DNA of 64,000 nt. Source: Candidatus Enterousia sp. GTDB lineage: Bacteria; Pseudomonadota; Alphaproteobacteria; Rs-D84. The notes under the pieces are model-generated. The model saw nothing but the letters and a program-made list of their open reading frames with translations, was not told the DNA's origin and ran no database searches. A program made the position numbers and the translations under genes. The stretch spans positions 76,758-140,757 of the forward strand of contig JBGUTP010000016.1 of assembly GCA_045133095.1 (NCBI GenBank). Reading direction: 5' to 3'. Positions 19,472 to 58,017 of this stretch are shown here, one piece after another. The stretch's first letter is position 1, and each line of letters opens with the position of its first letter.

Positions 19472-19768
19472 ATGAAACAGCAAGTATTAAAAGCATTGGC
19501 AAACCCTTCGCACATTTTTTATGTGCCTTATTCGTTAGCCATACTTAATTTTGCCGTGCAGTTTATTATTTTTATGGTCTTGTTTGTTGTGTCGCTGGTT
19601 GCAACAAAGGGAAGTAAGCCATTATCACCGCTGGTTTTCTTGCTGTCGGTTATTGTGGTGCATTCGATAATTGCAATCTTTTCAAAGCGTGACCCACAAT
19701 TGGGGCAGATTGTGACCGCTAAGTTACAATTGTTTAAAAAGAAAATACCAGGAAAATTAGCAGCATGA
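19472..19768 (+). CDS. Type IV secretion protein VirB3/TrbD-like
   Basis: A 98-aa protein with two TM segments. Its stop overlaps the virB4 start, as in trbD-trbE/virB3-virB4 operons. Confidence 0.55.
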   Translation: MKQQVLKALANPSHIFYVPYSLAILNFAVQFIIFMVLFVVSLVATKGSKPLSPLVFLLSVIVVHSIIAIFSKRDPQLGQIVTAKLQLFKKKIPGKLAA

Positions 19769-29022: not shown

Positions 29023-30288
29023 TTGTTGGCCAATCAATTTATAAATGTTAATCGTAAAAAATACGCGACAGGTCTGTTTTGGCAGCCTGTGGCGGCGGGG
29101 TTCGTTGCGCGAAATTATGCCAGAAATTTAGCAAAAAATGTCGATAGAAAACTGAATCTTTATGTGGAATATCGGGCGATGGTTGGTTTGGGGGCGCGTA
29201 AAGGTGGACAGCGTTCCGGTATGCACAGCGCAGCCGCAGAAGTAATGGAAAGTTTTTCAGAATATACTTCGTTCTTGGCAGTGTTCGAAAATGGAAAAAA
29301 GTTCTATTTAGTTGCGGCGCGTAATGGAATTATTCTGGAAGATAAAGTTTTTGATTCCGAAAGTCAGGCGCGTGATGAATATGTAAAATTGTCTGAAATT
29401 CCTGATTGGGGGGCGTTCTTTGCACCTGGGGCGTGGGGAATGCCGCGTGCCGCAGAAAGAAATCTGGCAGATGTTATAACAGGACGTTCAAAGGCGGTTC
29501 TGCGTTCAATCAGTTATTTAAGAAATGGAATTGTGTCGCTGGTTCTGGTGGGATTGTTTGTGTTGGGATTTGTGTTTTTGTTTCGTGATTCTTTGGTTCA
29601 GATGATGACACCAAGACCTAAGAAGCAAGATTTAAACCCGGAATTGGTCGCGGAATATAAAAGACAAATTGAAGAAAAAAATAAGGAACTGGATAAGCAA
29701 TTCCAAATCGAAAAGGAGTTGCCGCCAGAGCCTATTGTTATGCCATACGAATTGTTGCCAGATGTTCAGGCAAGGGCAAAGTTGTGCTATCAGGCGATTG
29801 GTTTCTTGATGCAGCCTGTGGTTGGTTGGAATCAGGTTTGGGCGGAATGTGGTGAAACACATGCGGTCGCAGAATTTAGGCGTACGTTCGGTACGTTGGG
29901 GGAATTTTATAATGTCGCAGCCGGATTAATGCCAGGTGCGTTTGTGCAGGAAATAAATGATGATACGTTAAGAGTTAGTGCCGCGCTGCCTGAATTAGAA
30001 GTAATGTCCAGCCAGGACGAAAGAGATGTGGAAACAGTAATTCGTGATGTTACAACGGCTTTTCAAGGCGTTGATACAAATGTTGAAACGAATGTCGTGG
30101 TTGATACTTTGACTAATGGTGTCGATGTGGCAGATGTTAATGTGGTCGAAGTAGGGGTGGAATCAAAACTGGTGCCAATGCAGTTTATGAAAGTCTTTGA
30201 AGAATTTGGCGGTGTTTATTTGATGCGGGCTGCATGGGATGTGGCGTCGCGGACCTGGAACTATGAGGTGATAATCTATGCAAAATAA
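29023..30288 (+). CDS. Bitopic inner-membrane protein (cytoplasmic domain-TM-periplasmic domain), putative assembly-platform subunit (PilO(R64)/GspL-like role)
   Basis: A 421-aa protein. It has a cytoplasmic domain of about 170 aa, one TM segment (IVSLVLVGLFVLGFVFLF) and a periplasmic domain of about 225 aa with a coiled-coil. It is the first gene of the operon and apparently uses a TTG start. Confidence 0.4.
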   Translation: MLANQFINVNRKKYATGLFWQPVAAGFVARNYARNLAKNVDRKLNLYVEYRAMVGLGARKGGQRSGMHSAAAEVMESFSEYTSFLAVFENGKKFYLVAARNGIILEDKVFDSESQARDEYVKLSEIPDWGAFFAPGAWGMPRAAERNLADVITGRSKAVLRSISYLRNGIVSLVLVGLFVLGFVFLFRDSLVQMMTPRPKKQDLNPELVAEYKRQIEEKNKELDKQFQIEKELPPEPIVMPYELLPDVQARAKLCYQAIGFLMQPVVGWNQVWAECGETHAVAEFRRTFGTLGEFYNVAAGLMPGAFVQEINDDTLRVSAALPELEVMSSQDERDVETVIRDVTTAFQGVDTNVETNVVVDTLTNGVDVADVNVVEVGVESKLVPMQFMKVFEEFGGVYLMRAAWDVASRTWNYEVIIYAK

Positions 30289-30943
30289 AAAAATGTTGTT
30301 GGGGCTGTTGTGTTGTGGGGCAATGTTTATGTTTAATGCACACGCAGCAGAAGAATTAGAAGTCGAAATTGATATGGAACAGGTGTCGGCAGATGCAGTC
30401 GCAGATTATCAAGTCGAAGGGTCTTTGTTTCAGCAAATTACAGATTTAGAACAGGAAAAAGTTCTGATGCAGTTGGAAAAAGAACGCGCGCAGTTGGACC
30501 TGGAATTGGATAGATTGGCGGCAGAAAAAATTAAACTGCATATGGAAATTGATACGCTGTCTGGACGTGCAGAACAGCAACAGCAGGAAATCGAAACACA
30601 AAAGGCTAAGTTAGAGGCGGAAGCTGCAAGAATCGAACGTGAAAAAGAATCTTGGTTGGCGGATTTAGAAGCAAAAGAAAAAAATAAAGCAAGCGATAAA
30701 AAAGTCGTAGAAGCAAAACCAGAAGTGGATATCACAACTAGATATAGACTGGTTAATGTAATTGGTGCAGGAAATCAATTGCAGGCAACAATCGAGGATT
30801 TAAGCAGCGGACAAAGTAAAAGAATAAGCGTGGGAAGAACATTGGATGGTTTGACCGTGAAATCTATATCTTTGTATGATGGGGTGGTGTTCGAAGCAAA
30901 AGATGGAAGTGTTCAAAATTTGAATGTAAGTAATGGAAAATAA
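30278..30943 (+). CDS. PilP/GspC-HR-like periplasmic coiled-coil protein
   Basis: Signal peptide, a long coiled-coil and a C-terminal beta domain. The C-terminal motif is YRLVNVIGAGNQLQATIEDLSSGQSKRISVGRTLDGLTVKSISLYDGVVFE, matching the PilP pattern YxLxGxxxxGxxxxAxIxxxxGQxxxVxxGxxLxxxxVxxIxxxxV. Confidence 0.5.
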   Translation: MQNKKMLLGLLCCGAMFMFNAHAAEELEVEIDMEQVSADAVADYQVEGSLFQQITDLEQEKVLMQLEKERAQLDLELDRLAAEKIKLHMEIDTLSGRAEQQQQEIETQKAKLEAEAARIEREKESWLADLEAKEKNKASDKKVVEAKPEVDITTRYRLVNVIGAGNQLQATIEDLSSGQSKRISVGRTLDGLTVKSISLYDGVVFEAKDGSVQNLNVSNGK

Positions 30944-30951
30944 TATAAAAA

Positions 30952-32586
30952 ATGGCCAAGGAAAAAGAAGTCTTTGAAAATGTTGTAACAACAGATAAAC
31001 CGTCTGTTCCGGCGGGGTTGGAAAACGCAGAGTCAAAAGATATTATCGATTATTTGTTCGCTAATGGAAACAGGTTGCAGACCGCAACAGGGGCGCCATT
31101 GGAACTGCCGCATGATACGCAGGGGTTGGTTGCATATTTTACCGGTGGTGAAGTTATTATTTCCAGAACACACAGATATGATGGACGTGTGTTGGCGTTC
31201 TTGGATTTGTTGAAAAGACGTGGACGTGTTGTAAGACAGCCTTTTTATTCTGATTTAGGATTGATTTCAAATATCTATAAAACATACGAGATGAGATTAG
31301 GGGGTGGGGCGCGTTCTCGTGTGGATTTTGATAATCAAATGCAAAAGGACTTTGTCGATATTATCGCAAAGGCAGCAGCGCAAAAAGTATCTGATGTACA
31401 CGTAGAGGTCGCAGACCAGACAACTATATATTTTCGTATCGATGGCAGTATGCAGCCGGTGTTGGAATATAATTCACAGTGGGGTGAATCTTTCCTGCGT
31501 GCGGCGTTCGCATCGTCGGATATTTCTAATGCTAACTATGCGGTAAACGAATATCAATCAGCACAGAAAGACGGACGAACACCACTGCGTGGAACCAAGG
31601 ATTTATATTTGCCGTCGGGGGTGCTGGGGGTGCGTATGCAATTCAACCCGATTGCGTTTGGTACACGCTATGCGGTGATGCGATTGCTGTATGATAATCC
31701 GTCCGAAGGAATAAAAATCGAACAAGAGTTCGGACCGTATGAACAAAAAATGCTGGCAAGAATGCGGTCGTTCCCAACAGGATTGGTTATTGTCGCAGGT
31801 CCAACAAGTTCAGGTAAATCAACGACGTTAGTGCGCAATATGTCCTTGATGCTGAAAGAGCGCAATTATGAAATTAATATGATTACTGTGGAAAACCCAG
31901 TAGAACAAAAAATATTTGGCGCACGACAGATGCCAGTTGTTAATACGACTAATGAAGAACAGCGTGAAGAAAAATATGTAGAAGCATTGGCAGCAGCGTT
32001 AAGAAGTGACCCTGATACGTTGATGGTCGGAGAAATTCGTACACTTGCCGCAGCACAGTTGACCGTGCGTGGGGCGTTGTCTGGGCATAATGTGTGGACG
32101 ACGTTGCATGCTAATTCTGCAATGGCGGCGTTGACAAGATTGCTGGATTTGGGAATCGAACCGTTCAAATTAAAAGAAGAAACACTGATGCGTGGGTTGG
32201 TGTCAATGCGACTGTTTAAAAAAGTTTGCCCACATTGCCGTGAACCGTTGATGAATCATCCAGAACGTGGGGCATATCGTCGCGTGATGGATGCATATGG
32301 TGAATTAGGATTAAGACAGGTTTATCAACGTGGCGCAGGATGCAGTCATTGCAAAGGTTCAGGACATATGGGGCGTATCAAAGCAGGCGAGATTATTATT
32401 ACTAATAGTGAATTTTTGAGATTGGCTTTGTCCGGGAATACAGATGCGGCGGTGCGGTACTGGATGGAAGAAATGGATGGACGCACGTTAAAAGAAGCCG
32501 CGGCGGCGTTGATGCTGAAAGGAGTGGTGGATATTGACGAACTGGAAAGATGGGTCGGGTATGTTGATGAACCGGGGGCGTACTGA
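30952..32586 (+). CDS. GspE/PilB/TcpT-family secretion ATPase with tetracysteine zinc finger
   Basis: Walker A VAGPTSSGKSTT, Asp box, Walker B LMVGEIR, His box GHNVWTTLHANSA and a CPHC...CSHC motif. The N-terminal roughly 150 aa is atypical. Confidence 0.85.
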   Translation: MAKEKEVFENVVTTDKPSVPAGLENAESKDIIDYLFANGNRLQTATGAPLELPHDTQGLVAYFTGGEVIISRTHRYDGRVLAFLDLLKRRGRVVRQPFYSDLGLISNIYKTYEMRLGGGARSRVDFDNQMQKDFVDIIAKAAAQKVSDVHVEVADQTTIYFRIDGSMQPVLEYNSQWGESFLRAAFASSDISNANYAVNEYQSAQKDGRTPLRGTKDLYLPSGVLGVRMQFNPIAFGTRYAVMRLLYDNPSEGIKIEQEFGPYEQKMLARMRSFPTGLVIVAGPTSSGKSTTLVRNMSLMLKERNYEINMITVENPVEQKIFGARQMPVVNTTNEEQREEKYVEALAAALRSDPDTLMVGEIRTLAAAQLTVRGALSGHNVWTTLHANSAMAALTRLLDLGIEPFKLKEETLMRGLVSMRLFKKVCPHCREPLMNHPERGAYRRVMDAYGELGLRQVYQRGAGCSHCKGSGHMGRIKAGEIIITNSEFLRLALSGNTDAAVRYWMEEMDGRTLKEAAAALMLKGVVDIDELERWVGYVDEPGAY

Positions 32587-32588
32587 AG

Positions 32589-33659
32589 ATGAATAAATTG
32601 GAATTGTGGTATGCTAAATTAGTCTTTCGGTTAAATACTGAAAAACGTATGGCGATTTGCAGAAAATTGGCTTCGTTGTTGCGGAATGATTTTACGCTGA
32701 TTAATGCGTTGGAACGTTTAGAGATGATTGAATCAAAAAACGGTACAAAGCCAAATGAACCATACGCAATTGCTATGCGTGAATGGCAAAAAAGCCTGGA
32801 ACGAGGTATGAGTTTTTCAGATGCAACGCGTGGTTGGGTGCCACCAGAAGAAACACTGTTGGTGACATCAGGTAATTTGTCTAGTTTGGTTGTTGCACTT
32901 GAAAACGTCGGACGCGTCGTAGATGGAACACAGCGTATCAGACGTGCAATGACAACCGCAGTGGCGTATCCTTTGTTCTTGTTAGCGTTGACGTTCGGAA
33001 TCATTATTATGGTTGGGGTTTATCTGGTGCCGCCATTGGCAGAAGTTGCAGGGTCGCAAATTGTATGGCAGGGAACAGCCCGGTCTTTGATATGGGTGTC
33101 TGATATTTCAATAAAATACTGGTATTGGTTCTTGGTGGTTTTTGCAGGTGTCGTTGGGATTATATGGTTGTCTTTGCCAAGATGGTCCGGGCAGCTGAGG
33201 GCAAAATTTGATAAGTTGCCACCGTGGAGCGTTTATAAAATTCAGGTGTCAGTTGGGTGGCTGATGTCGTTGGCGGCAATGGTGAAAACAGGGGTTACAA
33301 TCCCAGATGCTATGCGTATGTTGGCAGATAATGCCAATCGATATCTAAGAAATATATTGGAATCTGCACTGAGGTTTATTGCTAATGGTGATAACTTGGG
33401 GGTGGCGTTGACACACACAAAGCGTAATTTCCCCGATGATGATATTATTGGCGATATTACTATTTACGCAGATATGAATGAATTTGATGATAATTTAAAC
33501 CAGGTCGCAAATGATTATCTTGAAGAGTCTGTACGTAAAATGGAAAAAATTTCTGATACTTTGAACAGTTTGGGGATTTTGCTGGTGTCCGCGATAATTG
33601 CGTGGGTGGTGCTGGGGACGTTCCAGATGCAAGACCAGATTACAAGTGCGCTGTCGTAG
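32589..33659 (+). CDS. GspF/PilC/TcpE-like inner-membrane platform protein
   Basis: A 356-aa protein with two cytoplasmic helical repeats and three TM segments. It carries the AYPLFLLALTFGIIIMVGVYLVPPL (AYPxxxL...P) signature of GspF-family proteins. Confidence 0.7.
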   Translation: MNKLELWYAKLVFRLNTEKRMAICRKLASLLRNDFTLINALERLEMIESKNGTKPNEPYAIAMREWQKSLERGMSFSDATRGWVPPEETLLVTSGNLSSLVVALENVGRVVDGTQRIRRAMTTAVAYPLFLLALTFGIIIMVGVYLVPPLAEVAGSQIVWQGTARSLIWVSDISIKYWYWFLVVFAGVVGIIWLSLPRWSGQLRAKFDKLPPWSVYKIQVSVGWLMSLAAMVKTGVTIPDAMRMLADNANRYLRNILESALRFIANGDNLGVALTHTKRNFPDDDIIGDITIYADMNEFDDNLNQVANDYLEESVRKMEKISDTLNSLGILLVSAIIAWVVLGTFQMQDQITSALS

Positions 33660-39250: not shown

Positions 39251-39817
39251 CTAGAAACTGTATGTCAGACCTGCGCCGAAAAACGCGTATGAATTATTTT
39301 CAGGTGCGGTGTTGCCGTTGGAATAATGCTGGGCAAATAATTCAAGGTGGGTACATTCAGATAATCTGTAGCCACTGCCCAGTTTGAAACCGAATAGCAA
39401 TTTTGAACCAATGCGTTCGTTCTGTTGCGCTTGGAAACCGACAGATGCGCCCGTATAAAAATACCAACCGTGACCACTTGCCAGGATTACGTCTTCGGAT
39501 ATGGTTATGATGGGTATTGTGTATTTATCCCAATGCCATCCGCGTGATGTGCCAAAACCAAGTGTCTGGGTCACGTTTAATGATTTGCGTGCCGGCAGAC
39601 GGAAAAATTCAGTGGGTTGAGAATACTGGACGTTAAGCATCGTGAATGGTACCCAACGAACAGGCGCAGGGATTAAAAAACCACTGTCCACGCCCCAGCC
39701 AAAATTGACCGCAACTTGATTTTCATAGCCATTAAAAAATGGGTTTGTGTCCGCCCAGGCAGTTGCCGAAACAGATGAAATAATAAAAGCAGTTATGATT
39801 TTTTTCATAGGGTCCAT
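39251..39817 (-). CDS. Small outer-membrane beta-barrel, PagL-like (lipid A deacylase family?)
   Basis: Signal peptide, a terminal Phe (LTYSF) and a conserved H-x-S-N-G motif (QHYSNGN) as in PagL. Confidence 0.3.
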   Translation of the reverse strand: MDPMKKIITAFIISSVSATAWADTNPFFNGYENQVAVNFGWGVDSGFLIPAPVRWVPFTMLNVQYSQPTEFFRLPARKSLNVTQTLGFGTSRGWHWDKYTIPIITISEDVILASGHGWYFYTGASVGFQAQQNERIGSKLLFGFKLGSGYRLSECTHLELFAQHYSNGNTAPENNSYAFFGAGLTYSF

Positions 39818-39905
39818 GATATCATAAAAGAAGAACGTCTGCAATAGAGTTTATTAAAAACAATAATAATTGTAAATATGAATAAAATCACGCATGTTGT
39901 TTTTC

Positions 39906-45375: not shown

Positions 45376-46272
45376 ATGAATGTACAACGTATGTGGGCAA
45401 TGACAAAAATAATCGTTCAGGGACATGTGTTAAACTGGTTCTGGCGTGACAGAAAACACAGACGCGAAGTGCGCAGCAAGGTCATAGAACGTGTAATCCC
45501 AAAATACTTTGAAAGATATTTGCCAGCCGCAGCCGCAGTAAAAGAACGCAAGGTCGTTAATAACGATAAAAACGACAAGATTTTTTCACTGTGGTTGCAA
45601 GGTGAAGAAAATGCACCAGAGTTGGTGAAGTCTTGTTTTCGCAGTGTGCGCAGACATTGTAAACAAGAATTGGTTGTTTTGGACGAAAAGACCGTGTTTG
45701 ATTATATTACTCTGCCAGAAGAAATTATGAAAAAGCGCAAAGCGGGTAAGATTTCACATGCGCACTTTGCGGATATTTGTCGGGTGGAATTGTTGTATAA
45801 TCATGGCGGGTATTGGCTGGATTCAACAGGGTTTGTGACCGAAGCCATTCCTGATTGGATTGAAAAAGAAGATTTCTTTGTTTATATGGCAGGGCAAAAG
45901 GTCGGCAGCCCATACAGTTATATGCAAAATTGTTTTATTCGTTCGCGAAAGGGGGCATATCTGCTGGATGCGTGGCGGGCGATGATGTTGGATTACTGGA
46001 TGCATGAAAACGGACCGTTTGATTATTTTATGCATCAATTGTTGTTCAAGACAATGGTTATGAATGATGAACGTGCAAAAAAACACTTTGCAAAAATGCC
46101 ACACGTTGACCAAGACCCGACACATGCACTGTGGTGGGATTGGCATGATAAGCCATACGATGAAAAAAAATTCCGTGAAGTAACAAGTGGGGCTTTCTTT
46201 CAAAAGACAACTTATCATCAGGCGAAAAATCCAAAGCCGGGTTCTGTGGCAGAAGCAATGTTGAAGATGTAA
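45376..46272 (+). CDS. Glycosyltransferase, GT32/Caps_synth-like (OCH1-type DXD sugar transferase)
   Basis: Motifs IFSLWLQGEENAP and HFADICRVELLYNHGGYWLDS are typical of the Gly_transf_sug/capsule synthesis family. Confidence 0.5.
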   Translation: MNVQRMWAMTKIIVQGHVLNWFWRDRKHRREVRSKVIERVIPKYFERYLPAAAAVKERKVVNNDKNDKIFSLWLQGEENAPELVKSCFRSVRRHCKQELVVLDEKTVFDYITLPEEIMKKRKAGKISHAHFADICRVELLYNHGGYWLDSTGFVTEAIPDWIEKEDFFVYMAGQKVGSPYSYMQNCFIRSRKGAYLLDAWRAMMLDYWMHENGPFDYFMHQLLFKTMVMNDERAKKHFAKMPHVDQDPTHALWWDWHDKPYDEKKFREVTSGAFFQKTTYHQAKNPKPGSVAEAMLKM

Positions 46273-46285
46273 AAAAGGATTTTCT

Positions 46286-47059
46286 ATGCCAGTGGTGTCA
46301 GTCATTATTCCTGTGTATAAGGTGGAAAAATATCTGCGACGTTGCCTGGACAGTTTAATCGCCCAGACTTTTGCAGATTGGCAGGCAATTTGTATCGATG
46401 ATGGCAGCCCAGATAGGTCGCCGGCGATACTGGATGAATATGCCGCACGTGATGCAAGAATTAAGGTTATTCACAGGGCAAATGGTGGGGTGTCGTCTGC
46501 GCGAAATCTGGGAATAGAAAATGCAAGTGGAAATTATATTCATTTCTTGGATGCAGATGATTGGATTGACCCAGAATATTATCAGGCAATGGTAACGGTT
46601 GCCACGGATTCAGATGCAGATATGGTAGTGTCTGGGTTCGTCAGTGATAATAAATATACTAAACCTATTGTTTATCGTGATGTTAAATTAAAACGTAAGA
46701 TTGCCGATAAGTTGCGGTTGACATATGCTTTGACTGATTCTTATGTGTGGCGGTATTTGTTTAAAACAGATTTTGTGCGTACAAAAAAATTATTGTTTGA
46801 TACAAATTTAATCGCACAGGAAGATACTTTGTTTGTGTTAAACGCAATTGCAGATGCGAATGCAATTGTGACCGTGCCGTGGGTTAATTATCATTATATG
46901 TTTAATGAAAATTCAGCCTTGAATAATCGTGACGCGGCGCATCATGCAAAGGTTAAAGCGCAATATAAAATAGGTAAACAATATAGACGTGATTTCGCAA
47001 AACAACACGGTGTGATAAGACTGTGGAGATTGCGTAAAATATTAAACTTATTCAGATAA
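46286..47059 (+). CDS. Family 2 glycosyltransferase
   Basis: VSVIIPVYKVEKYLRRCLDSLIAQTF...DDGSPD...DADD is the GT2 N-terminal signature. Confidence 0.75.
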   Translation: MPVVSVIIPVYKVEKYLRRCLDSLIAQTFADWQAICIDDGSPDRSPAILDEYAARDARIKVIHRANGGVSSARNLGIENASGNYIHFLDADDWIDPEYYQAMVTVATDSDADMVVSGFVSDNKYTKPIVYRDVKLKRKIADKLRLTYALTDSYVWRYLFKTDFVRTKKLLFDTNLIAQEDTLFVLNAIADANAIVTVPWVNYHYMFNENSALNNRDAAHHAKVKAQYKIGKQYRRDFAKQHGVIRLWRLRKILNLFR

Positions 47060-47074
47060 ACATAGGGGGATATA

Positions 47075-48103
47075 ATGCCAGCAATTTCTGTAATTATTCC
47101 AATTTATAATGTCGAAAAGTATCTGCGCAGATGTTTGGATAGTGTAAAAAATCAAACATTTACAGACTGGGAGGCGATTTGTGTAAATGACGGCAGCCCT
47201 GATAACTGTGCAGAGATATTGGCAGAATATGCCGCCAAGGACGCTAGATTTAAAATAGTTAATAAGGAAAATGGTGGACTGTCCGATGCGCGAAATGCAG
47301 GTATGAAGGTCGCAACAGGTGAATATATTTTATACCTGGATAGCGATGATTTTATCCATCCGCAAACAATGGAAATTACACATGTGCTGGCGGTGCGTGA
47401 TGGGTCCGATATGGTGGCGTTTACATACGACAGAATTTATCGACCGCAACTGATGATACGGCATTATCTGAAAATGGATACAGATAACGTTGTGCCAAGG
47501 AGGTTGAATAAAAAATATAAACTGTCAAATGTGCCAACGTTGGTAACTGATGATGTTTATGAGTATGCAACAGAAAAAACACATAATCGGTGGAGTAAGA
47601 AAAAAAAGTGGATGATTAAACATTGTCAGGTGTGGAAGCATTTGTATAAACGTGAACTGATTGCAGATATTCCGTTTATCAAAGGGATTTTGTTCGAGGA
47701 CTTTCCATGGTGGAGTCAGGTTATGATGTCTAATCCACGTGTGACAATTACTAATTTGCCTTTGTATTTCTATATACCGAATTTTGGTGGGATTGTATTA
47801 AGTGCCAAGCAATTGCGCATTATGAAAAGTTTGTGCGTAGGTTTAAAAGATGCATATACGCGATATGTTCATGCAGCAACGCCATATCAAATGAAAAAAT
47901 GGTCGGAAAATTTTCAGTGGTATTTTGTCGCCAAGGCGTTTGGAAAGATTAAATATCTTGATGGAAATGATGATGTAGATGCGGCACGAGAATGTTTGCG
48001 CGAACTGGAACATATGGGGGCGTTAGATAAGCCACCGTATAAGTGGGCAAAAAAACTGCGCAGTCAGATTTGTGCTTTTATTAAAACATGTAGGGTTGAA
48101 TAG
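47075..48103 (+). CDS. Family 2 glycosyltransferase (paralog)
   Basis: ISVIIPIYNVEKYLRRCLDSVKNQTF...NDGSPD...DSDD. It is a paralog of the preceding gene. Confidence 0.75.
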   Translation: MPAISVIIPIYNVEKYLRRCLDSVKNQTFTDWEAICVNDGSPDNCAEILAEYAAKDARFKIVNKENGGLSDARNAGMKVATGEYILYLDSDDFIHPQTMEITHVLAVRDGSDMVAFTYDRIYRPQLMIRHYLKMDTDNVVPRRLNKKYKLSNVPTLVTDDVYEYATEKTHNRWSKKKKWMIKHCQVWKHLYKRELIADIPFIKGILFEDFPWWSQVMMSNPRVTITNLPLYFYIPNFGGIVLSAKQLRIMKSLCVGLKDAYTRYVHAATPYQMKKWSENFQWYFVAKAFGKIKYLDGNDDVDAARECLRELEHMGALDKPPYKWAKKLRSQICAFIKTCRVE

Positions 48104-48150
48104 TAGGTACGTGGTTAGTGAATGTGTGCGGCAAATGCCGCACATTTTTA

Positions 48151-49164
48151 TTATTTTTCAAATTGACTTTTGTTCGGAAAACGTTCGCGCATAAATTTTG
48201 CGTTGTTTTCAAGAATTGTATCGTCTGTGTCGCGAGAATCGTTTATGCAAAACGTTGGGGCGCCAAGTAATGCACGACGTGCCGCAACAGTGTCAGAACA
48301 AACAACCGGTGAATTGTGTATCCATGGCGCAAAAATAGTGTTGTAAATTGCGTTTATTATTTTATGACGTGTGAATTTGCGGGCGCGGCTGTGGATGAAT
48401 TTCGCGCGACCCGTGATTAAATCATACAGGTTGAACATCCAACGTTGAACTTCGGTGTTTGTGCGGAATTTGTTATATTTTTGTGCCTCGATTTGTGGCG
48501 CAATATCAGGGTGTGAAATACATTCTGACCATGATGATTTTATGTATGGGTCAATGCCGTGTGATGGGCGATATTTGTAAACCTTTTTGCCGTAAACTCG
48601 GTCGATGAATTCGGCGGACAATATTAATGTTTGGTTGTATTCGTCAACCTGAGTTTTCCATGTTTTTATGTCACGACTGTGGCGGGAATGATTGCTGAAC
48701 CGAATAAGGGCGCGACCACGGGAATCATAAAAGAAACTTGGGGTCAGCGGGCGATTGAAAAATATGTCATCATTCATTAATAAAAAGTGTTCTGATAATC
48801 CAGGGATGTTTGGGATGCACATTTCAATGGCGGTCGCGTTAAATGTTGGCAGGGCGTCCGATGGAAATATCTGTTCGTGTGGAACAATTGTGATTTTTGG
48901 GTGTTTGGTATTCAACCATTTTGGAATCTGACCAAAGCCGGTGATAATGTAAATGTGATTTACCCAAGGGGCAAATTGTTCAACACTGCGCAGAGAATAA
49001 AGTAATTCGCCATTGTCGCGCCAGCGTGCCTCTATGGCGGCATCGTTATAGACAGGTTTTTCACCCTTGACGATTTCCAACCATTTATCTTTCTGGGTGC
49101 GCCACTTTTTGTCGCCACCATCAACCCACAGGTAAACTAAATCTATTTTTTTTGGTGTCGCCAT
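48151..49164 (-). CDS. Stealth-family capsular polysaccharide hexose-1-phosphate transferase
   Basis: Stealth CR1 (IDLVYLWVDGGDKKW) and CR2 (ELLYSLRSVEQFAPWVNHIYIITGFGQIP) motifs. Confidence 0.6.
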   Translation of the reverse strand: MATPKKIDLVYLWVDGGDKKWRTQKDKWLEIVKGEKPVYNDAAIEARWRDNGELLYSLRSVEQFAPWVNHIYIITGFGQIPKWLNTKHPKITIVPHEQIFPSDALPTFNATAIEMCIPNIPGLSEHFLLMNDDIFFNRPLTPSFFYDSRGRALIRFSNHSRHSRDIKTWKTQVDEYNQTLILSAEFIDRVYGKKVYKYRPSHGIDPYIKSSWSECISHPDIAPQIEAQKYNKFRTNTEVQRWMFNLYDLITGRAKFIHSRARKFTRHKIINAIYNTIFAPWIHNSPVVCSDTVAARRALLGAPTFCINDSRDTDDTILENNAKFMRERFPNKSQFEK

Positions 49165-49168
49165 AATT

Positions 49169-50011
49169 TTAAACCCCTGATTTTTGAAAACGGTTTGGAA
49201 TTTTTACAACGCGTTTTATCCCCAGCATGCCGGGTTTATCCCACGCATAGATTGGACGGAAAATACGCTGCATAATGCGGGCTATCCTTAGCCATCGTTC
49301 GTCGCGCGCCCGACGGTTGGTCACATCGTTGATTGTCCCGTTGCCACGACGACGTAAGTGGTTTACCCAGTCGGGACCACGAGATGCCGCCTTGGATACC
49401 AGCATGTCCATGTCAACCGCGCCAAAATGTAATAAATATAAATTAGGGTCAATGTGGAAATTGTGACCGTTTATGCTGTGAAACCCGCTGCCCCAGCGGA
49501 CAGGGCGGTTAATTACAACCGGTTTGGTATAGCGTGTGGATAGTAGGGCGTATGAACGCTGAGTCAGGAATGGTTTAGATGTGTCAAGTGGTTCTTCGTG
49601 TGTTAAGTGCTGGCCCACGTCCAGACCCAGACCAGATAGGGTGGTGTTGATTTCTTTGTTTGATAAATATTCAGATAAAGACGTGTTCAGGTCAGGGTCC
49701 ACAATTAAAAATTCATCACAGTCACAACCAATAACAATGTCATAGTCTTTTAATAAATGCGCCGCAAGGTCGGACATTTTGTTGATTCTGTATTTGTCGC
49801 CCGCAGCACGTGACATGTCAGTGTGGGGTAATTTTGTGATGTGGGCAGTATCCGCGTTTTCAGGGATGTCTTGGTCGGTCCCATCAAGGTATATGTATAA
49901 ATTGTCAGTGCCAATTTCGCGACCATAATATTCAATCCAGCGGGATAGAAAAAATGTGTCGTTTCGTGCCATCGTTATCGCGGCAATACGTTTTAAATTC
50001 TGTGTTTTCAT
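49169..50011 (-). CDS. GT-A fold glycosyltransferase (DxD), family uncertain
   Basis: AAITMARNDTFFLSRWIEYY...IYLDGTDQD...CDCDEFLIVDP. It has a DXD-like acidic motif and GT-A-like layout. Confidence 0.4.
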   Translation of the reverse strand: MKTQNLKRIAAITMARNDTFFLSRWIEYYGREIGTDNLYIYLDGTDQDIPENADTAHITKLPHTDMSRAAGDKYRINKMSDLAAHLLKDYDIVIGCDCDEFLIVDPDLNTSLSEYLSNKEINTTLSGLGLDVGQHLTHEEPLDTSKPFLTQRSYALLSTRYTKPVVINRPVRWGSGFHSINGHNFHIDPNLYLLHFGAVDMDMLVSKAASRGPDWVNHLRRRGNGTINDVTNRRARDERWLRIARIMQRIFRPIYAWDKPGMLGIKRVVKIPNRFQKSGV

Positions 50012-50856
50012 AATTTTCCCGTAAGTATTTTTTTTGTTGTGTGTTTTAATTGCCTGAAAAATATTTTTAATGGGTTTGTGGTTAATAACCAGTTTAGGTA
50101 TTTGTCGCCGTATTGCATCTGGGCAGAAAGTGTAATGGCAATGCGTGTGTCATCGTCAACATGGTTTAGTACATACAGAATCTGTCGCCCAAGTGAACCA
50201 TAGTGACGCGTAAATGCCAGTTTTTTCATAAATGGCATTTCGGCAATATATAATTTTTTTACCTGATTATAAATGCCGCGGTTTTTTACCGTATAGAGGC
50301 ACTTCCATGTCAGATTGTGTGCCAAAATCTTTTTTGATAAGCCGTGTTCATATTGACGGGTTATTTGACCCTTGGATGCAAGTTTTGTAACAGAACGAAT
50401 AAAAGTGTCGTACCAATTCGATAAAAATATACTGGGGCGCAGACCTATGAACCAAGATTGAATATGTGGGTGGTCTGTGTTTGGATTCTTGACCATTCCA
50501 AATCCGTCGGTCCCCATGTTTTCCATGCGTTCCAGATATGGCGCAATGTCGTATAATGGACCATATACAGAATCGTTGACCATATAAACATAGTCATAGT
50601 CAGAAAGATTTAGATTTTCAGTTGCCCATACGTATGCGCGTTTGTAAGAACCAAAATCATATTCGCCATGACGCACGCCATGCGCATAAAGTGTGATTTT
50701 GTTCAGTTTCTGTAATTCGGATTTTGGACAGTCTGAATCCATAAAAACAATAACGTCGCCAGATTGACTGAGTGCGCGAACATAATAAACCAGGGCAGGG
50801 TCAATCGTGCCATTTTTATCATAGCCCGCAAATAAAAATAAACGCTTGGGTTTCAT
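50008..50856 (-). CDS. RgpF/rhamnan-synthesis-F-like polysaccharide biosynthesis protein
   Basis: The N-terminus LFLFAGYDKNGTIDPALVYYVRAL matches the RgpF-family pattern FxxYDxxGxIDxxxxYY. Confidence 0.4.
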   Translation of the reverse strand: MKPKRLFLFAGYDKNGTIDPALVYYVRALSQSGDVIVFMDSDCPKSELQKLNKITLYAHGVRHGEYDFGSYKRAYVWATENLNLSDYDYVYMVNDSVYGPLYDIAPYLERMENMGTDGFGMVKNPNTDHPHIQSWFIGLRPSIFLSNWYDTFIRSVTKLASKGQITRQYEHGLSKKILAHNLTWKCLYTVKNRGIYNQVKKLYIAEMPFMKKLAFTRHYGSLGRQILYVLNHVDDDTRIAITLSAQMQYGDKYLNWLLTTNPLKIFFRQLKHTTKKILTGKL

Positions 50857-56352: not shown

Positions 56353-57981
56353 TTATTCGTAAATTTCGTATTCTTCGATGTATGAACGACCAACGCGTTC
56401 AAGTTTGACAGGGGTGTAATTTTCCGCGCGGATGGTGTCACCGTCTTCTTCGGGCATGATTGTGATAAGTTCGCTTTTTTGGACAACCGGTGCGCTGGTT
56501 GTGTTCGCGCCAAGGGTTTTGCTGCGATATTTAAAACGGTAACGGTCGGGAATCGTTATATAGTTGTCTGGGTCAATGCCAGATGTTTGTAATTCCATGG
56601 ATGGGGCAGGGGTTATGTGATTCTGCTGGATATTGTATAGTGGTTCCAGGAAATTGTTCGGGGCGTCCTTGACCAGGCGTGGTGTGCCAGATGCGTCCAG
56701 TTCAACAATACGCAGGGCGCGTTCTGATGCGCCGTTTGGATGAATGCGGAAAAGACCGTCCGTGCCAAGGTAACCGCTGGGGTTCAAAAGATATGCCGCA
56801 GTTGATTTGTTTGAATAAATCATGCCAATTGCAAAGTTGGTCGCGTCATAACCAAATGTCGCAAGACGGTTCGGTAGGGTGCCAGAGATAAGTGAATATG
56901 TGTTAGAAAAGGTTGGGTCTGTATCGGGCATGGTTGCATATTTTGCACCAGACATCGTAAAGTCAGATGCTATGTTGGAACCTTCCCACATTGTGGTGCC
57001 GTATAAACGTGCATCAGATGCGCCCACATTGTAATAGCGCAAAAATGATGTCAGCGCCTGAGTGTCGTCGCCACCGCCCAGGAATAATATGGCGTTGTAT
57101 GGCACAGGACCAAGGGTTTCCGTGCGTGATAATTTGGTTAATTGGTGATTAAGATTTGATTTTTCCAATGATGTTAATTTTTCATTTATAAGAATGTCTG
57201 ATAAAACCTGGCGGGCGCGGGTGTGGGCAGACGTGCGCGCATTGTTCATTGATGCAGATAACGCAGCAGATTTTATAGAATCTGTGTCTTTTTCTTTGTA
57301 GTAAAATATGCCAGATAATGGAATGTTGTAAATTTCTGATGCGCTTTTTGCAGCACCTGCCATTAAGTGACCAGAATCAGTGTCGGGTGCCATGACGATA
57401 AAGTTTTGAACACCGTCAATCTGCATTTCTTGGATTATTGTTTCTATGCCGTTCGTTGGCATAAGTGCCATGGTCATTACACCGTCGCCAAGGACGGTCG
57501 CATCTGATGTAAATGATAATACAGGTATGTCAGATGTTCTGGATTGCTTTACCAGGCGGGTGTCGGCAGAAAATACAGGACCCAGGATAACCTCGGGTTG
57601 TGTTGCAAGAATGGTGGGCATCTGTTCAGATAGATTGTCGTTGGTATCATAGAAAGATACAGATAAATTCTTTGGCGCGTTTTGCAGTATTGCCGCCTCG
57701 ACAGAAGTGCGTATCGTGCGACCAACAGATGCGTTAGTGCCAGACAGCGGTAATAAAACCGCCATGTTATATGTGTCTGATGTCGATAGGTCCGTGCCAT
57801 AGCCGTCGGATTGGGTGCCGTACAGCATTTGAACCGGCGTGCCAGTTGTCATGGCGTCGTATTCCGAAAACCAATCTGTTGCAGAGGTGGATGATTTGTC
57901 GCCACCAGTTGTGCAACCAGATAAAACGCCAAGTGCCAGTAAGTATCTAAAAAATCTGTTCTTAAACATTGAAATATCCAT
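56353..57981 (-). CDS. LppC/LpoA-family lipoprotein (periplasmic-binding-protein-like domain)
   Basis: Lipobox LSGC. The central segment AVLLPLSGTNASVGRTIRTSVEAAIL is typical of LpoA/LppC PBP-type domains. Confidence 0.35.
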   Translation of the reverse strand: MDISMFKNRFFRYLLALGVLSGCTTGGDKSSTSATDWFSEYDAMTTGTPVQMLYGTQSDGYGTDLSTSDTYNMAVLLPLSGTNASVGRTIRTSVEAAILQNAPKNLSVSFYDTNDNLSEQMPTILATQPEVILGPVFSADTRLVKQSRTSDIPVLSFTSDATVLGDGVMTMALMPTNGIETIIQEMQIDGVQNFIVMAPDTDSGHLMAGAAKSASEIYNIPLSGIFYYKEKDTDSIKSAALSASMNNARTSAHTRARQVLSDILINEKLTSLEKSNLNHQLTKLSRTETLGPVPYNAILFLGGGDDTQALTSFLRYYNVGASDARLYGTTMWEGSNIASDFTMSGAKYATMPDTDPTFSNTYSLISGTLPNRLATFGYDATNFAIGMIYSNKSTAAYLLNPSGYLGTDGLFRIHPNGASERALRIVELDASGTPRLVKDAPNNFLEPLYNIQQNHITPAPSMELQTSGIDPDNYITIPDRYRFKYRSKTLGANTTSAPVVQKSELITIMPEEDGDTIRAENYTPVKLERVGRSYIEEYEIYE

Positions 57982-58017
57982 TTTATTCTGTATCATTTTA
58001 CTATAAAAGGATTAAGA

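What the first reader, a model, noticed from the sequence alone, without database searches (positions are those of the whole stretch)
29023..33659. Orphan 4-gene pilus/secretion-like module (bitopic protein, PilP-like, zinc-finger GspE-family ATPase, GspF-family platform) with no pilin, peptidase or secretin in cis
Seen in sequence: the four genes are tightly packed. Gaps are -11, 8 and 2 nt. They follow a perfect extended -10 promoter. The ATPase has the full Walker A/B, Asp-box, His-box and CxxC-CxxC set. The fourth gene has the GspF AYP..P signature. The second gene has a PilP/GspC-HR-like C-terminal beta domain. The first gene is a 421-aa bitopic protein.

Established knowledge: gene order and sizes (421, 221, 544 and 356 aa) resemble pilO-pilP-pilQ-pilR of IncI1/R64-type thin (type IVb) pili. 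Those pili are normally ICE or plasmid borne. They also come with a secretin (pilN), pilin (pilS), peptidase (pilU) and adhesin (pilV).

None of those partners is present in the window. Instead the module sits between lipid A genes (lpxK-lpxC plus a lipoprotein) and a convergent gene pair. I infer either a stripped-down, possibly secretin-independent ATPase-platform machine or a domesticated remnant of a conjugative thin-pilus locus.
Basis: partly seen in the sequence, partly recalled or inferred. Interest (0 to 1): 0.78.

Follow-up and report, generated by a model that had tools for sequence, protein, structure and literature searches.

The report
Inner-membrane core of scattered type-IVb pilus
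The four genes are real and form the inner-membrane motor of an R64-like type IVb pilus, but they are not an orphan: in this tiny-genome gut bacterium (Candidatus Enterousia) the outer-membrane pore and the pilin genes sit at other chromosomal sites, as seen in related genomes.

Summary
Four tightly packed genes (pilO2-like, pilP-like, BfpD-like ATPase, GspF-family platform) follow a conserved extended -10 promoter. The 64-kb window holds no pilin, secretin or peptidase.

The "orphan / secretin-independent / remnant" reading does not hold. The window comes from Candidatus Enterousia (order Rs-D84, Alphaproteobacteria), gut bacteria with genomes of about 0.9 Mb. The promoter-plus-four-gene block is intact in every complete locus among 80 species examined, out of 239 species genomes with a relative. 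It is under strong purifying selection (dN/dS 0.04-0.24) and moves as one unit when genomes rearrange.

Relatives encode the missing partners elsewhere. These are a tcpQ-pilN pair (lipoprotein secretin of the R64 PilN family) near dnaA, small prepilins next to dnaX or uvrC, and three pilin-like genes of 400-460 aa. Each partner lies on the same contig as pilOPQR in several species.

It is therefore the inner-membrane core of a dispersed, vertically inherited chromosomal type IVb pilus system. It is a new member of a known kind, and no paper found describes it for this lineage.

Two gaps remain. No prepilin peptidase was located. The partner genes could not be checked in this exact genome.

The parts
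28906..28927 (+). Intrinsic-terminator-like hairpin plus T-run. It ends the upstream lipoprotein gene and marks the 5' boundary of the unit.
   Evidence: 8-bp stem, T-run; coordinates confirmed
28965..28994 (+). Sigma-70-type promoter with an extended -10 element (TTGCCT-18 nt-TGTGTTATAAT).
   Evidence: It is conserved in 76 of 77 orthologous loci and travels with the block in rearranged genomes.
29013..29021 (+). Purine-rich GAGAGAGAG, a probable ribosome-binding site a few nt before the TTG start.
   Evidence: Conserved as GAGAGAGA(A/G) in related loci; coordinates. The role is inferred.
29023..30288 (+). pilO2-like bitopic protein (421 aa; the conserved start is probably 29026). It has a cytoplasmic BfpC/PilO2-type N-domain, one transmembrane segment (169-187), and a periplasmic domain with two invariant Cys (C255, C276).
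   Evidence: orthologues carry PF06864; profile hits BfpC 3vhj at E=1e-5 and PilO2Bp 4bz0 at 2e-4
30278..30943 (+). pilP-like periplasmic protein (221 aa). It has a signal sequence, a long coiled coil (about 38-139) and a C-terminal beta domain.
   Evidence: TIGR03021 in 25/25 orthologues, best E=3.5e-10; single-sequence model: the helix is confident, the beta domain has low confidence
30952..32586 (+). pilQ-like extension ATPase (544 aa) of the GspE/PilB/BfpD superfamily, with an N-terminal domain and a CxxC...CxxC zinc motif.
   Evidence: (BfpD 262 bits over residues 37-529, against about 157 bits for PilF/GspE)
32589..33659 (+). pilR-like polytopic platform protein (356 aa) of the GspF/PilC family.
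   Evidence: (201-243 bits to T4b platform proteins of E. coli and Bosea plasmids)

Best explanation
The four genes are one self-contained transcription unit: its own promoter followed by pilO, pilP, pilQ and pilR. It encodes the inner-membrane assembly core of an R64/PilN-family type IVb pilus machine in Candidatus Enterousia. This is a gut alphaproteobacterium of order Rs-D84 with a genome of about 0.9 Mb, predicted to depend on partner organisms.

Proposed mechanism, inferred from the homologous BFP, R64 and type II secretion systems:
- The hexameric ATPase PilQ docks on the cytoplasmic actin-like domain of the bitopic PilO.
- PilQ turns the polytopic platform PilR, which lifts processed pilins out of the inner membrane into a growing filament.
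- Periplasmic PilP, through its coiled coil and beta domain, ties this platform to the outer-membrane secretin.

The remaining parts are not missing but lie elsewhere on the chromosome, as seen in relatives:
- A tcpQ-pilN pair (lipoprotein secretin) in the origin-proximal block sufB-u182 | tcpQ-pilN | ... S20-plsY-dprA-dnaA.
- One or two small prepilins next to dnaX or uvrC.
- Three pilin-like proteins of 400-460 aa next to dnaX.

The likely output is a surface filament that attaches the cell to its partner or to gut surfaces. That function is inference only.
For: Family identity:
- PilO2.
- PilP.
- BfpD-like ATPase.
- GspF platform.
- The best plasmid match lies inside a complete locus in Bosea, ordered TcpQ-secretin-PilO2-PilP-ATPase-platform. 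An E. coli plasmid has the same order.

Lineage and conservation:
- 239 species genomes carry a relative. The best 80 are all gut MAGs of Ca. Enterousia or unnamed Alphaproteobacteria, including a closed genome of 958,618 bp.
- The O-P-Q-R block is invariant. It keeps its promoter in about 15 loci where the flanks differ.
- Protein identity to the window is 61-77% for O, 55-78% for P, 78-89% for Q and 69-85% for R.
- dN/dS is 0.04-0.24.

Partners in the lineage:
- Secretin. It was found on the same contig as pilOPQ in L051 and L146. JGI names several homologues 'type IVB pilus formation R64 PilN family'. TIGR02520 is the best model at 239.7 bits. A TcpQ (PF10671) gene lies directly upstream. 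The gene is interior to contigs of 935, 851, 697 and 590 kb. 73 of 84 copies are full length, and 67 of those have a lipobox.
- Pilins. In L038, L040 and L057 the block is preceded by dnaX-pilin(152 aa)-ompA-skp, with three large pilin-like genes on the other strand. All show G|xxxx(E/Q) followed by a hydrophobic helix. The small pilin hits the E. coli T4b major pilin at E of about 1e-5. The large pilin has 883 homologues. The same pilin island occurs in MAG GCA_017936185.1, which also holds pilOPQR (L014 and L173).
- Closest named relative. In the MAG whose ATPase is 89% identical to the window's, the ATPase (MBP3397405.1) and a large pilin (MBP3397416.1) are 11 accession numbers apart.
Against: - The partner genes were seen only in related genomes. 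The rest of this genome could not be fetched, so their presence here is inferred. The window's exact ATPase sequence is on record on an NCBI contig of 185,836 bp.
- No A24 prepilin peptidase and no PilT-type retraction ATPase was found in any held locus. Whole genomes were not searchable.
- The pilin-like proteins do not reach HMM thresholds for prepilin models. The AlphaFold model of the large one has low confidence (mean pLDDT 46; only the long N-terminal helix and the first alpha-beta part are moderately confident).
- The window's PilO and PilP scores lie just under the curated cut-offs.
- PilP did not align significantly with the Bosea or E. coli PilP proteins.
- No expression data exist, and no filament has been observed.
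Confidence: 0.8

Rival explanations
1. Orphan, secretin-independent ATPase-platform machine. On this view the four proteins work alone in the inner membrane or periplasm, without a pilin, secretin or peptidase.
For: No partner gene lies in the 64-kb window. The block is a self-contained unit with its own promoter. No prepilin peptidase was found in any held locus.
Against: Relatives carry an intact tcpQ-pilN locus and pilin genes, in several species on the same contig as pilOPQR. PilP belongs to a family of periplasmic proteins that tie the inner-membrane platform to the secretin (established knowledge of PilP/GspC; not tested here), and it is kept under purifying selection (dN/dS 0.07-0.21).
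Confidence: 0.05
2. Decaying remnant of a plasmid- or ICE-borne conjugative thin-pilus locus that landed in the chromosome and is on its way out.
For: R64-type systems are best known from IncI plasmids and ICEs (PMC3984277). The window region carries only four of the genes listed for R64-type pil operons, which number 14 in R64 itself.
Against: All four ORFs are intact in every complete locus of 80 species, with dN/dS of 0.04-0.24 and a conserved promoter. No integrase, tRNA-flanked island or change in GC content surrounds the block. The flanks are housekeeping genes (lpxK, lpxC, gyrB).
Confidence: 0.03
3. The same dispersed machine, but its main output is not an adhesive pilus. It could be a short pseudopilus that secretes proteins, as type II secretion does. 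It could also be a DNA-uptake filament that feeds a cell unable to make nucleotides.
For: The part list mirrors type II secretion. PilO resembles GspL, PilP resembles GspC, PilQ resembles GspE and PilR resembles GspF. The secretin corresponds to the T2SS secretin, and the pilin set is one small plus several larger pilin-like proteins. dprA lies in the conserved block next to pilN. The lineage lacks nucleotide and amino-acid synthesis (PMC12306168).
Against: Every component scores best against type IVb pilus families, not T2SS models. The ATPase scores 217 bits against a cut-off of 630 for GspE, and the platform 75 against 424 for GspF. The secretin is best matched by the PilN family. No ComEC or ComEA was seen in held loci, but this was not searched systematically. 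dprA is widespread in non-competent bacteria (general knowledge).
Confidence: 0.12

Closest known systems
R64 (IncI1) thin pilus, genes pilN-pilO-pilP-pilQ-pilR, and its relatives PAPI-1 pil2 of P. aeruginosa and Tfp7 of Burkholderia pseudomallei (PMC3984277)
   Same: The protein families are the same: PilO2/PF06864, PilP/TIGR03021, a GspE-type ATPase, a GspF-type platform and a PilN-family lipoprotein secretin. As in Tfp7, TcpQ is present. The order O-P-Q-R and the protein sizes also match.
   Different: - The genes are chromosomal, vertically inherited and split over at least three or four loci instead of one operon on a mobile element.
- Identity to known members is only 22-37%.
- No shufflon-type PilV, PilT2, PilM or PilL was recognised.
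- The prepilin leaders are only about 5-7 aa, with Arg at +1.
- There are three large pilin-like proteins of 400-460 aa.
Bundle-forming pilus of enteropathogenic E. coli (BfpC, BfpD, BfpE)
   Same: The ATPase's best solved relative is BfpD (262 bits, nearly full length). The PilO profile hits the BfpC N-domain (3vhj, E=1e-5). This supports a docking pair like BfpC-BfpD.
   Different: BFP is a single 14-gene plasmid operon with a retraction ATPase (BfpF), by general knowledge. No second ATPase was seen here.
Bosea sp. RAC05 plasmid pBSY19_1 T4b locus (NZ_CP016463.1)
   Same: It is the best plasmid match for the ATPase (37.5% over 99% of the length). The locus reads TcpQ-secretin-PilO2-PilP-ATPase-platform-PilT-...-PilV, in an alphaproteobacterium.
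   Different: It is contiguous and plasmid-borne, with PilT and PilV. The Enterousia block lacks these and is separated from its secretin.
Type II secretion inner-membrane platform (GspL, GspC, GspE, GspF)
   Same: It has the same architecture: a bitopic actin-like docking protein, a periplasmic secretin-binding linker, a zinc-binding ATPase and a polytopic platform.
   Different: Scores are far below the GspE and GspF equivalog cut-offs. The secretin and accessory proteins belong to pilus families.

Membership tests
R64/PilO2-type type IVb pilus system | PilO2-family bitopic protein (PF06864) with a BfpC/PilO2Bp-type cytoplasmic N-domain | tested here: met
   - The window protein scores 23.2 bits, below the gathering score of 26.7.
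- Orthologues 61-77% identical carry PF06864 on record.
- tblastn hits annotated pilO2 genes.
- The family profile hits BfpC 3vhj at E=1e-5 and PilO2Bp 4bz0/4byz at 2e-4.
- It has a single transmembrane segment at 169-187.
R64/PilO2-type type IVb pilus system | PilP-family periplasmic protein (TIGR03021) encoded between pilO and the ATPase | tested here: inconclusive
   The window protein scores 34.2 bits against a cut-off of 34.65. All 25 orthologues match, with best E=3.5e-10. Comparing the family profile with the Bosea and E. coli PilP sequences (hhalign) gave nothing significant. The beta domain in the single-sequence model has low confidence.
R64/PilO2-type type IVb pilus system | GspE-superfamily extension ATPase of the T4b (BfpD/PilQ) type, with Walker A and B, Asp and His boxes and a tetracysteine motif | tested here: met
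   Walker A and B were read from the translation
R64/PilO2-type type IVb pilus system | GspF/PilC-family polytopic platform protein | tested here: met
R64/PilO2-type type IVb pilus system | PilN-family lipoprotein secretin in the same genome | not testable with these tools
   It is absent from the window, and the rest of this genome could not be fetched. It is met in relatives. The secretin lies on the same contig as pilOPQ in L051 and L146. 153 metagenome loci carry a relative. 73 of 84 copies are full length.
R64/PilO2-type type IVb pilus system | Major and minor pilins with a class III signal peptide | not testable with these tools
   None lies in the window. In relatives there are small prepilins of 152-162 aa and three pilin-like proteins of 400-460 aa, all with G|xxxx(E/Q) plus a hydrophobic helix. 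They fall below HMM thresholds.
R64/PilO2-type type IVb pilus system | Prepilin peptidase (A24), either cognate or borrowed from another system | not testable with these tools
   None was found in the window or in any of the roughly 170 held loci. PAPI-1 and Tfp7 also lack a cognate pilU. A whole-genome scan is needed.
R64/PilO2-type type IVb pilus system | Single contiguous pil operon on a plasmid or ICE, with a PilV shufflon adhesin (typical of R64, not universal) | tested here: not met
   The genes are chromosomal with housekeeping flanks, and the parts are split over several loci. There was no PilV hit.
Type II secretion system | GspE and GspF equivalogs scoring above the curated cut-offs | tested here: not met
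   TIGR02533 scores 217 bits against 630. TIGR02120 scores 75 bits against 424.
Tad/Flp pilus (public records call the ATPase 'TadA') | TadA/CpaF-type ATPase | tested here: not met
   The TadA-family model TIGR03819 scores only 30.9 bits against 373, over the core only. The best relatives are BfpD, GspE and PilB. The 'TadA' label is a generic annotation.

The most novel reading that the evidence does not exclude
The dispersed type IVb pilus is the organelle by which an obligate, partner-dependent gut alphaproteobacterium with a 0.9-Mb genome finds and holds its host cell, and perhaps takes up DNA or nutrients from it. This would parallel the type IV pili of epibiotic Saccharibacteria. The three conserved pilin-like proteins of 400-460 aa would act as the host-recognition tip. 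A stronger variant is that the lineage has no A24 peptidase at all and processes, or fails to process, its pilins in a new way.
Probability: 0.3. Interest if true: 0.6.

Novelty: new member of a known kind. Interest (0 to 1): 0.4.

Why it matters
Candidatus Enterousia (order Rs-D84) is widespread in ruminant, pig, chicken and human guts. Its genomes are below 1 Mb, and it is predicted to live off partner organisms. How it contacts them is unknown.

The one genomic survey I found reports no flagella and does not mention pili for this lineage (PMC12306168). A type IVb pilus machine kept intact in every species examined is therefore a concrete candidate for the attachment or uptake device. It is encoded alongside VirB type IV secretion genes.

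The case also shows that an R64-type system, usually treated as an accessory of plasmids and ICEs, can be a vertically inherited core system. Its parts are scattered like those of type IVa pili. That matters for annotation: 'no secretin or pilin nearby' should not be read as 'orphan'.

Tried and rejected
- Large unknown ORFs in the window as hidden secretins. 567-1952 is HlyD-like, 56353-57996 is LppC-like and 62722-end is an AMP-binding enzyme. Rejected.
- The upstream lipoprotein (28438-28899) and the convergent pair downstream as parts of the system. They stay with lpxC and gyrB when the block moves. Rejected.
- An apparently split secretin (a small lipoprotein ORF plus a body without a signal) as a programmed frameshift. 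The split is an N-gap in L088 and a 1-nt frameshift only in L090/L091. 73 of 84 copies are intact. Rejected.
- The truncated secretin in L089. The 5' part of that low-coverage contig looks chimeric. Ignored.
- The idea that the secretin is rare or confined to short contigs. The metagenome scan overturned this.
- The genes after virB4-u207 in relatives (298, 183, 273 and 342 aa) as further virB genes. Their N-terminal sequences look like dTDP-rhamnose synthesis enzymes (rmlABCD-like), a judgement made by eye with no family scan.
- The polytopic 310-aa protein near tcpQ as a hidden A24 peptidase. It has no GxGDxK-type motif and no Pfam hit on record.
- Structure predictions. The PilP single-sequence model and the large-pilin model were too low in confidence for fold searches, so none was run.
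- Extending the window through exact-protein look-ups failed.
- Literature searches found nothing on pili in Rs-D84 or Enterousia.
Full report
**The observation**

The window holds four co-directional ORFs at 29023-30288, 30278-30943, 30952-32586 and 32589-33659, of 421, 221, 544 and 356 aa. The gaps are -11, 8 and 2 nt, exactly as reported. The family scans gave these results:
- ORF1 hits PAP_PilO (PF06864) weakly, at 23.2 bits against a gathering score of 26.7.
- ORF2 hits the R64 PilP family TIGR03021 at 34.2 bits against 34.65.
- ORF3 hits T2SSE at 210 bits.
- ORF4 hits T2SSF at 95 bits.

The ATPase carries the Asp box, the His box and CPHC...CSHC. Walker A (GPTSSGKST) and Walker B (DPDTLMVGEIR) are readable in the translation. 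ORF1 has one transmembrane segment at 169-187. ORF2 has a signal-like N-terminus. ORF4 has AYP and three strongly hydrophobic segments.

An extended -10 promoter (TTGCCT-18-TGTGTTATAAT, 28965-28994) follows a terminator of the upstream gene at 28906-28927.

Pfam scans covered the window's longer ORFs whose function was not evident on reading. Together with a prepilin-motif scan, tblastn and phmmer, they found no pilin, secretin, TcpQ or A24 peptidase in the 64 kb.

**What the four proteins are**

- ORF1. tblastn of ORF1 against plasmids hits only genes annotated 'type 4b pilus protein PilO2', at 22-30% identity. A profile of the ORF1 family hits the solved N-domains of BfpC (3vhj, E=1e-5) and of Burkholderia PilO2 (4bz0/4byz, E=2e-4). 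These are actin-like domains (PMC3984277).
- ATPase. Its best solved relative is BfpD, the type IVb extension ATPase. BfpD scores 262 bits over residues 37-529, against about 157 bits for PilF, GspE and PilB.
- Plasmid matches. The best plasmid match (37.5% over 99% of the length) lies in a Bosea plasmid locus that reads TcpQ-secretin-PilO2-PilP-ATPase-platform-PilT-...-PilV. An E. coli plasmid shows the same order.
- ORF2. All 25 ORF2 orthologues tested hit TIGR03021.

So the R64-type pilO-pilP-pilQ-pilR assignment is right. The 'TadA' label that public records give the ATPase is not supported.

**Whose genome it is**

The ATPase has more than 120 clusters of homologues at 85-89% identity in uncultured gut Alphaproteobacteria. 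A scan of one genome per species found relatives of ORF1 in 239 species. The best 80 are all MAGs named 'Alphaproteobacteria bacterium', 'Candidatus Enterousia sp.' or 'uncultured Rickettsiales'. They come from ruminant, human and other guts, and include a closed chromosome of 958,618 bp.

Ca. Enterousia belongs to order Rs-D84. It has genomes of 0.75-1.0 Mb, lacks most biosynthesis and respiration, and is predicted to be an obligate symbiont or parasite. That paper notes the absence of flagella and mentions type IV pili only for another lineage (PMC12306168). I found no paper on pili in Rs-D84.

**A conserved, self-contained unit**

In all 80 loci the O-P-Q-R block is intact wherever the contig is complete. 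About 65 loci share the window's context (DUF374-lpxK-lpxC-lipoprotein-OPQR-convergent gene-gyrB). About 15 have other flanks. In those, neither the upstream lipoprotein nor the downstream genes travel with the block, but the promoter does.

TTTGCC-N17/18-TGTGTTATAAT, a GAGAGAGA ribosome-binding motif and a TTG start are present in 76 of 77 loci.

| Gene | Protein identity to the window | dN/dS |
|---|---|---|
| O | 61-77% | 0.10-0.24 |
| P | 55-78% | 0.07-0.21 |
| Q | 78-89% | 0.04-0.11 |
| R | 69-85% | 0.07-0.12 |

Synonymous sites are near saturation in these comparisons. The periplasmic part of PilO keeps two invariant cysteines. None of this fits a remnant.

**The partners exist elsewhere**

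Pilins. In three species (L038, L040, L057) the block is preceded by dnaX, a 152-aa prepilin-like gene, an OmpA-like lipoprotein and a Skp-like gene. On the other strand lie three pilin-like genes of 451, 405 and 439 aa, followed by a zinc-ribbon membrane protein and a small secreted protein.
- All four pilin-like proteins show a short charged leader ending in Gly, Glu or Gln at +5, and about 20 hydrophobic residues. Examples are MKQELG|RSLIEVIGVMAITG and TRG|SILVELLLSVALAS.
- A second small-pilin subfamily sits between uvrC and a pseudouridine synthase gene in L015, L120, L122 and L160.
- The small pilins hit an E. coli T4b major pilin at E of about 1e-5.
- The 439-aa protein has 883 homologues.
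- The pilin island recurs unchanged in other species. One of them is MAG GCA_017936185.1, whose neighbouring contig holds pilOPQR (L014).
- In the MAG whose ATPase is 89% identical to the window's, the ATPase and this pilin differ by 11 in protein accession number.

Secretin. phmmer with T4b reference proteins picked up the C-terminus of a secretin 10 kb upstream of pilO in L051.
- Several of its homologues are named by JGI 'type IVB pilus formation R64 PilN family outer membrane protein'.
- They sit directly after a TcpQ-domain gene.
- They score best against TIGR02520 (239.7 bits).
- A metagenome scan found 153 relatives, some interior to contigs of 935, 851, 697 and 590 kb.
- The synteny is very stable: gatBAC-ruvX-...-sufC-sufB-u182 | tcpQ-pilN | variable surface-protein genes | S20-plsY-u284-dprA-dnaA-...-gyrB.
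- L146 again has tcpQ-pilN and lpxK-lpxC-lipoprotein-pilOPQ on one contig.
- 73 of 84 secretin ORFs are full length, at 530 aa or more, and 67 of those have a lipobox. The rest are cut by contig ends, a scaffold gap or, in one strain, a 1-nt frameshift.

**Best explanation**

The module is the inner-membrane core of a complete but dispersed chromosomal type IVb pilus system. The sequence-level facts above are shown. The wiring is inferred from the homologous BFP, R64 and type II secretion systems:
- PilQ docks on the PilO N-domain.
- PilR acts as the rotating platform.
- PilP bridges to PilN.
- TcpQ assists the secretin.

The biological role, attachment of a partner-dependent cell to its host or substrate, is inference. 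A secretion or DNA-uptake role for the same machine is not excluded.

**Limits**

- I could not see the rest of this genome, so the presence of pilN, tcpQ and the pilins in this strain rests on conservation across the genus.
- No A24 prepilin peptidase and no retraction ATPase was found in the window or in about 170 held loci. Those loci cover only part of a genome. PAPI-1 and Tfp7 also lack a cognate peptidase.
- The pilin-like proteins do not reach HMM thresholds.
- The two structure predictions were of low confidence. In the PilP model only the coiled coil is confident. The large-pilin model has a mean pLDDT of 46, with a 52-residue N-terminal helix.
- PilP did not align significantly with the Bosea or E. 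coli PilP proteins.

**Verdict**

The orphan, secretin-independent and remnant interpretations are not supported.

The system is a new member of a known kind: an R64/PilN-type type IVb pilus. Three things are unusual about it. It is a vertically inherited core trait of a genome-reduced gut lineage, its genes are scattered over several loci, and its pilins have short leaders with Arg at +1. Interest is moderate. It gives a concrete, testable candidate for how Enterousia contacts its partners, but the mechanism itself is conventional.

Noticed in passing
window 19472-22829: virB3 (98 aa), virB4 (809 aa) and a 207-aa secreted protein are parts of a type IV secretion system. They lie 6 kb upstream of the lpx/pil region, and this linkage recurs in many Enterousia loci.
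   Followed up: partly
window 23510-25228: A 572-aa Lys/Glu-rich protein with no Pfam hit. It is present in only a few relatives (L012, L023, L030, L033).
   Followed up: no
window 28984-29028; the same position in L001-L086: The 5' region of pilO is conserved across about 80 species: TGTGTTATAAT, then GAGAGAGA(A/G)TTT, then a TTG start directly before GCC. This suggests the true start is 29026 and that a non-canonical purine-rich ribosome-binding motif is used.
   Followed up: partly
L004 7004-7969; also L008, L009, L010, L019: Some species carry an extra gene of 320-331 aa between the lipoprotein gene and pilO. The protein looks like an outer-membrane beta-barrel and ends in Phe. The gene is absent from the window and split in L006.
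   Followed up: partly
L090 8213-9840 and L091 5738-7365: The secretin pilN has a 1-nt frameshift that separates its lipoprotein signal from the body. It appears in two Logan assemblies of one strain, so it is either a real pseudogene or an assembly error.
   Followed up: partly
L089 3405-6814; L015 14687-17760: Variable Cys-rich and Gly-rich secreted proteins lie downstream of pilN or near the pil block. Their number and size differ between species, and several contigs end right after pilN.
   Followed up: no
L172 4848-5306 (-) and L015 20008-20484 (+): There are two subfamilies of small prepilin, one dnaX-linked (GRSLIEVIGVMAITG) and one uvrC-linked (GRSMIEMLGVLAIMG). Both have leaders of only about 5-7 aa and Arg at +1, which is unusual for type IVb pilins. 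Whether one genome carries both is unknown.
   Followed up: partly
L092-L171 (e.g. L094, L096): dprA sits in the conserved origin-proximal block S20-plsY-u284-dprA-dnaA, a few genes from tcpQ-pilN. This is a weak hint of DNA uptake in a lineage that cannot make nucleotides.
   Followed up: no
window 1-64000: GC skew is strongly positive (0.2-0.3) from about 10 kb to the end of the window, and nearly all genes there are on the + strand. This fits a long stretch of leading strand. In relatives, dnaA lies within about 10-20 kb of gyrB or pilN.
   Followed up: no
window 45376-50856: A cluster of surface-polysaccharide genes, by Pfam hits: Caps_synth, Stealth, Glyco_tranf_2_4 and RgpF-like. Two further ORFs at 46286-48103 were read by eye as family-2 glycosyltransferases and were not scanned. 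PagL lies at 39251-39844. The envelope is elaborate for a 0.9-Mb genome.
   Followed up: no
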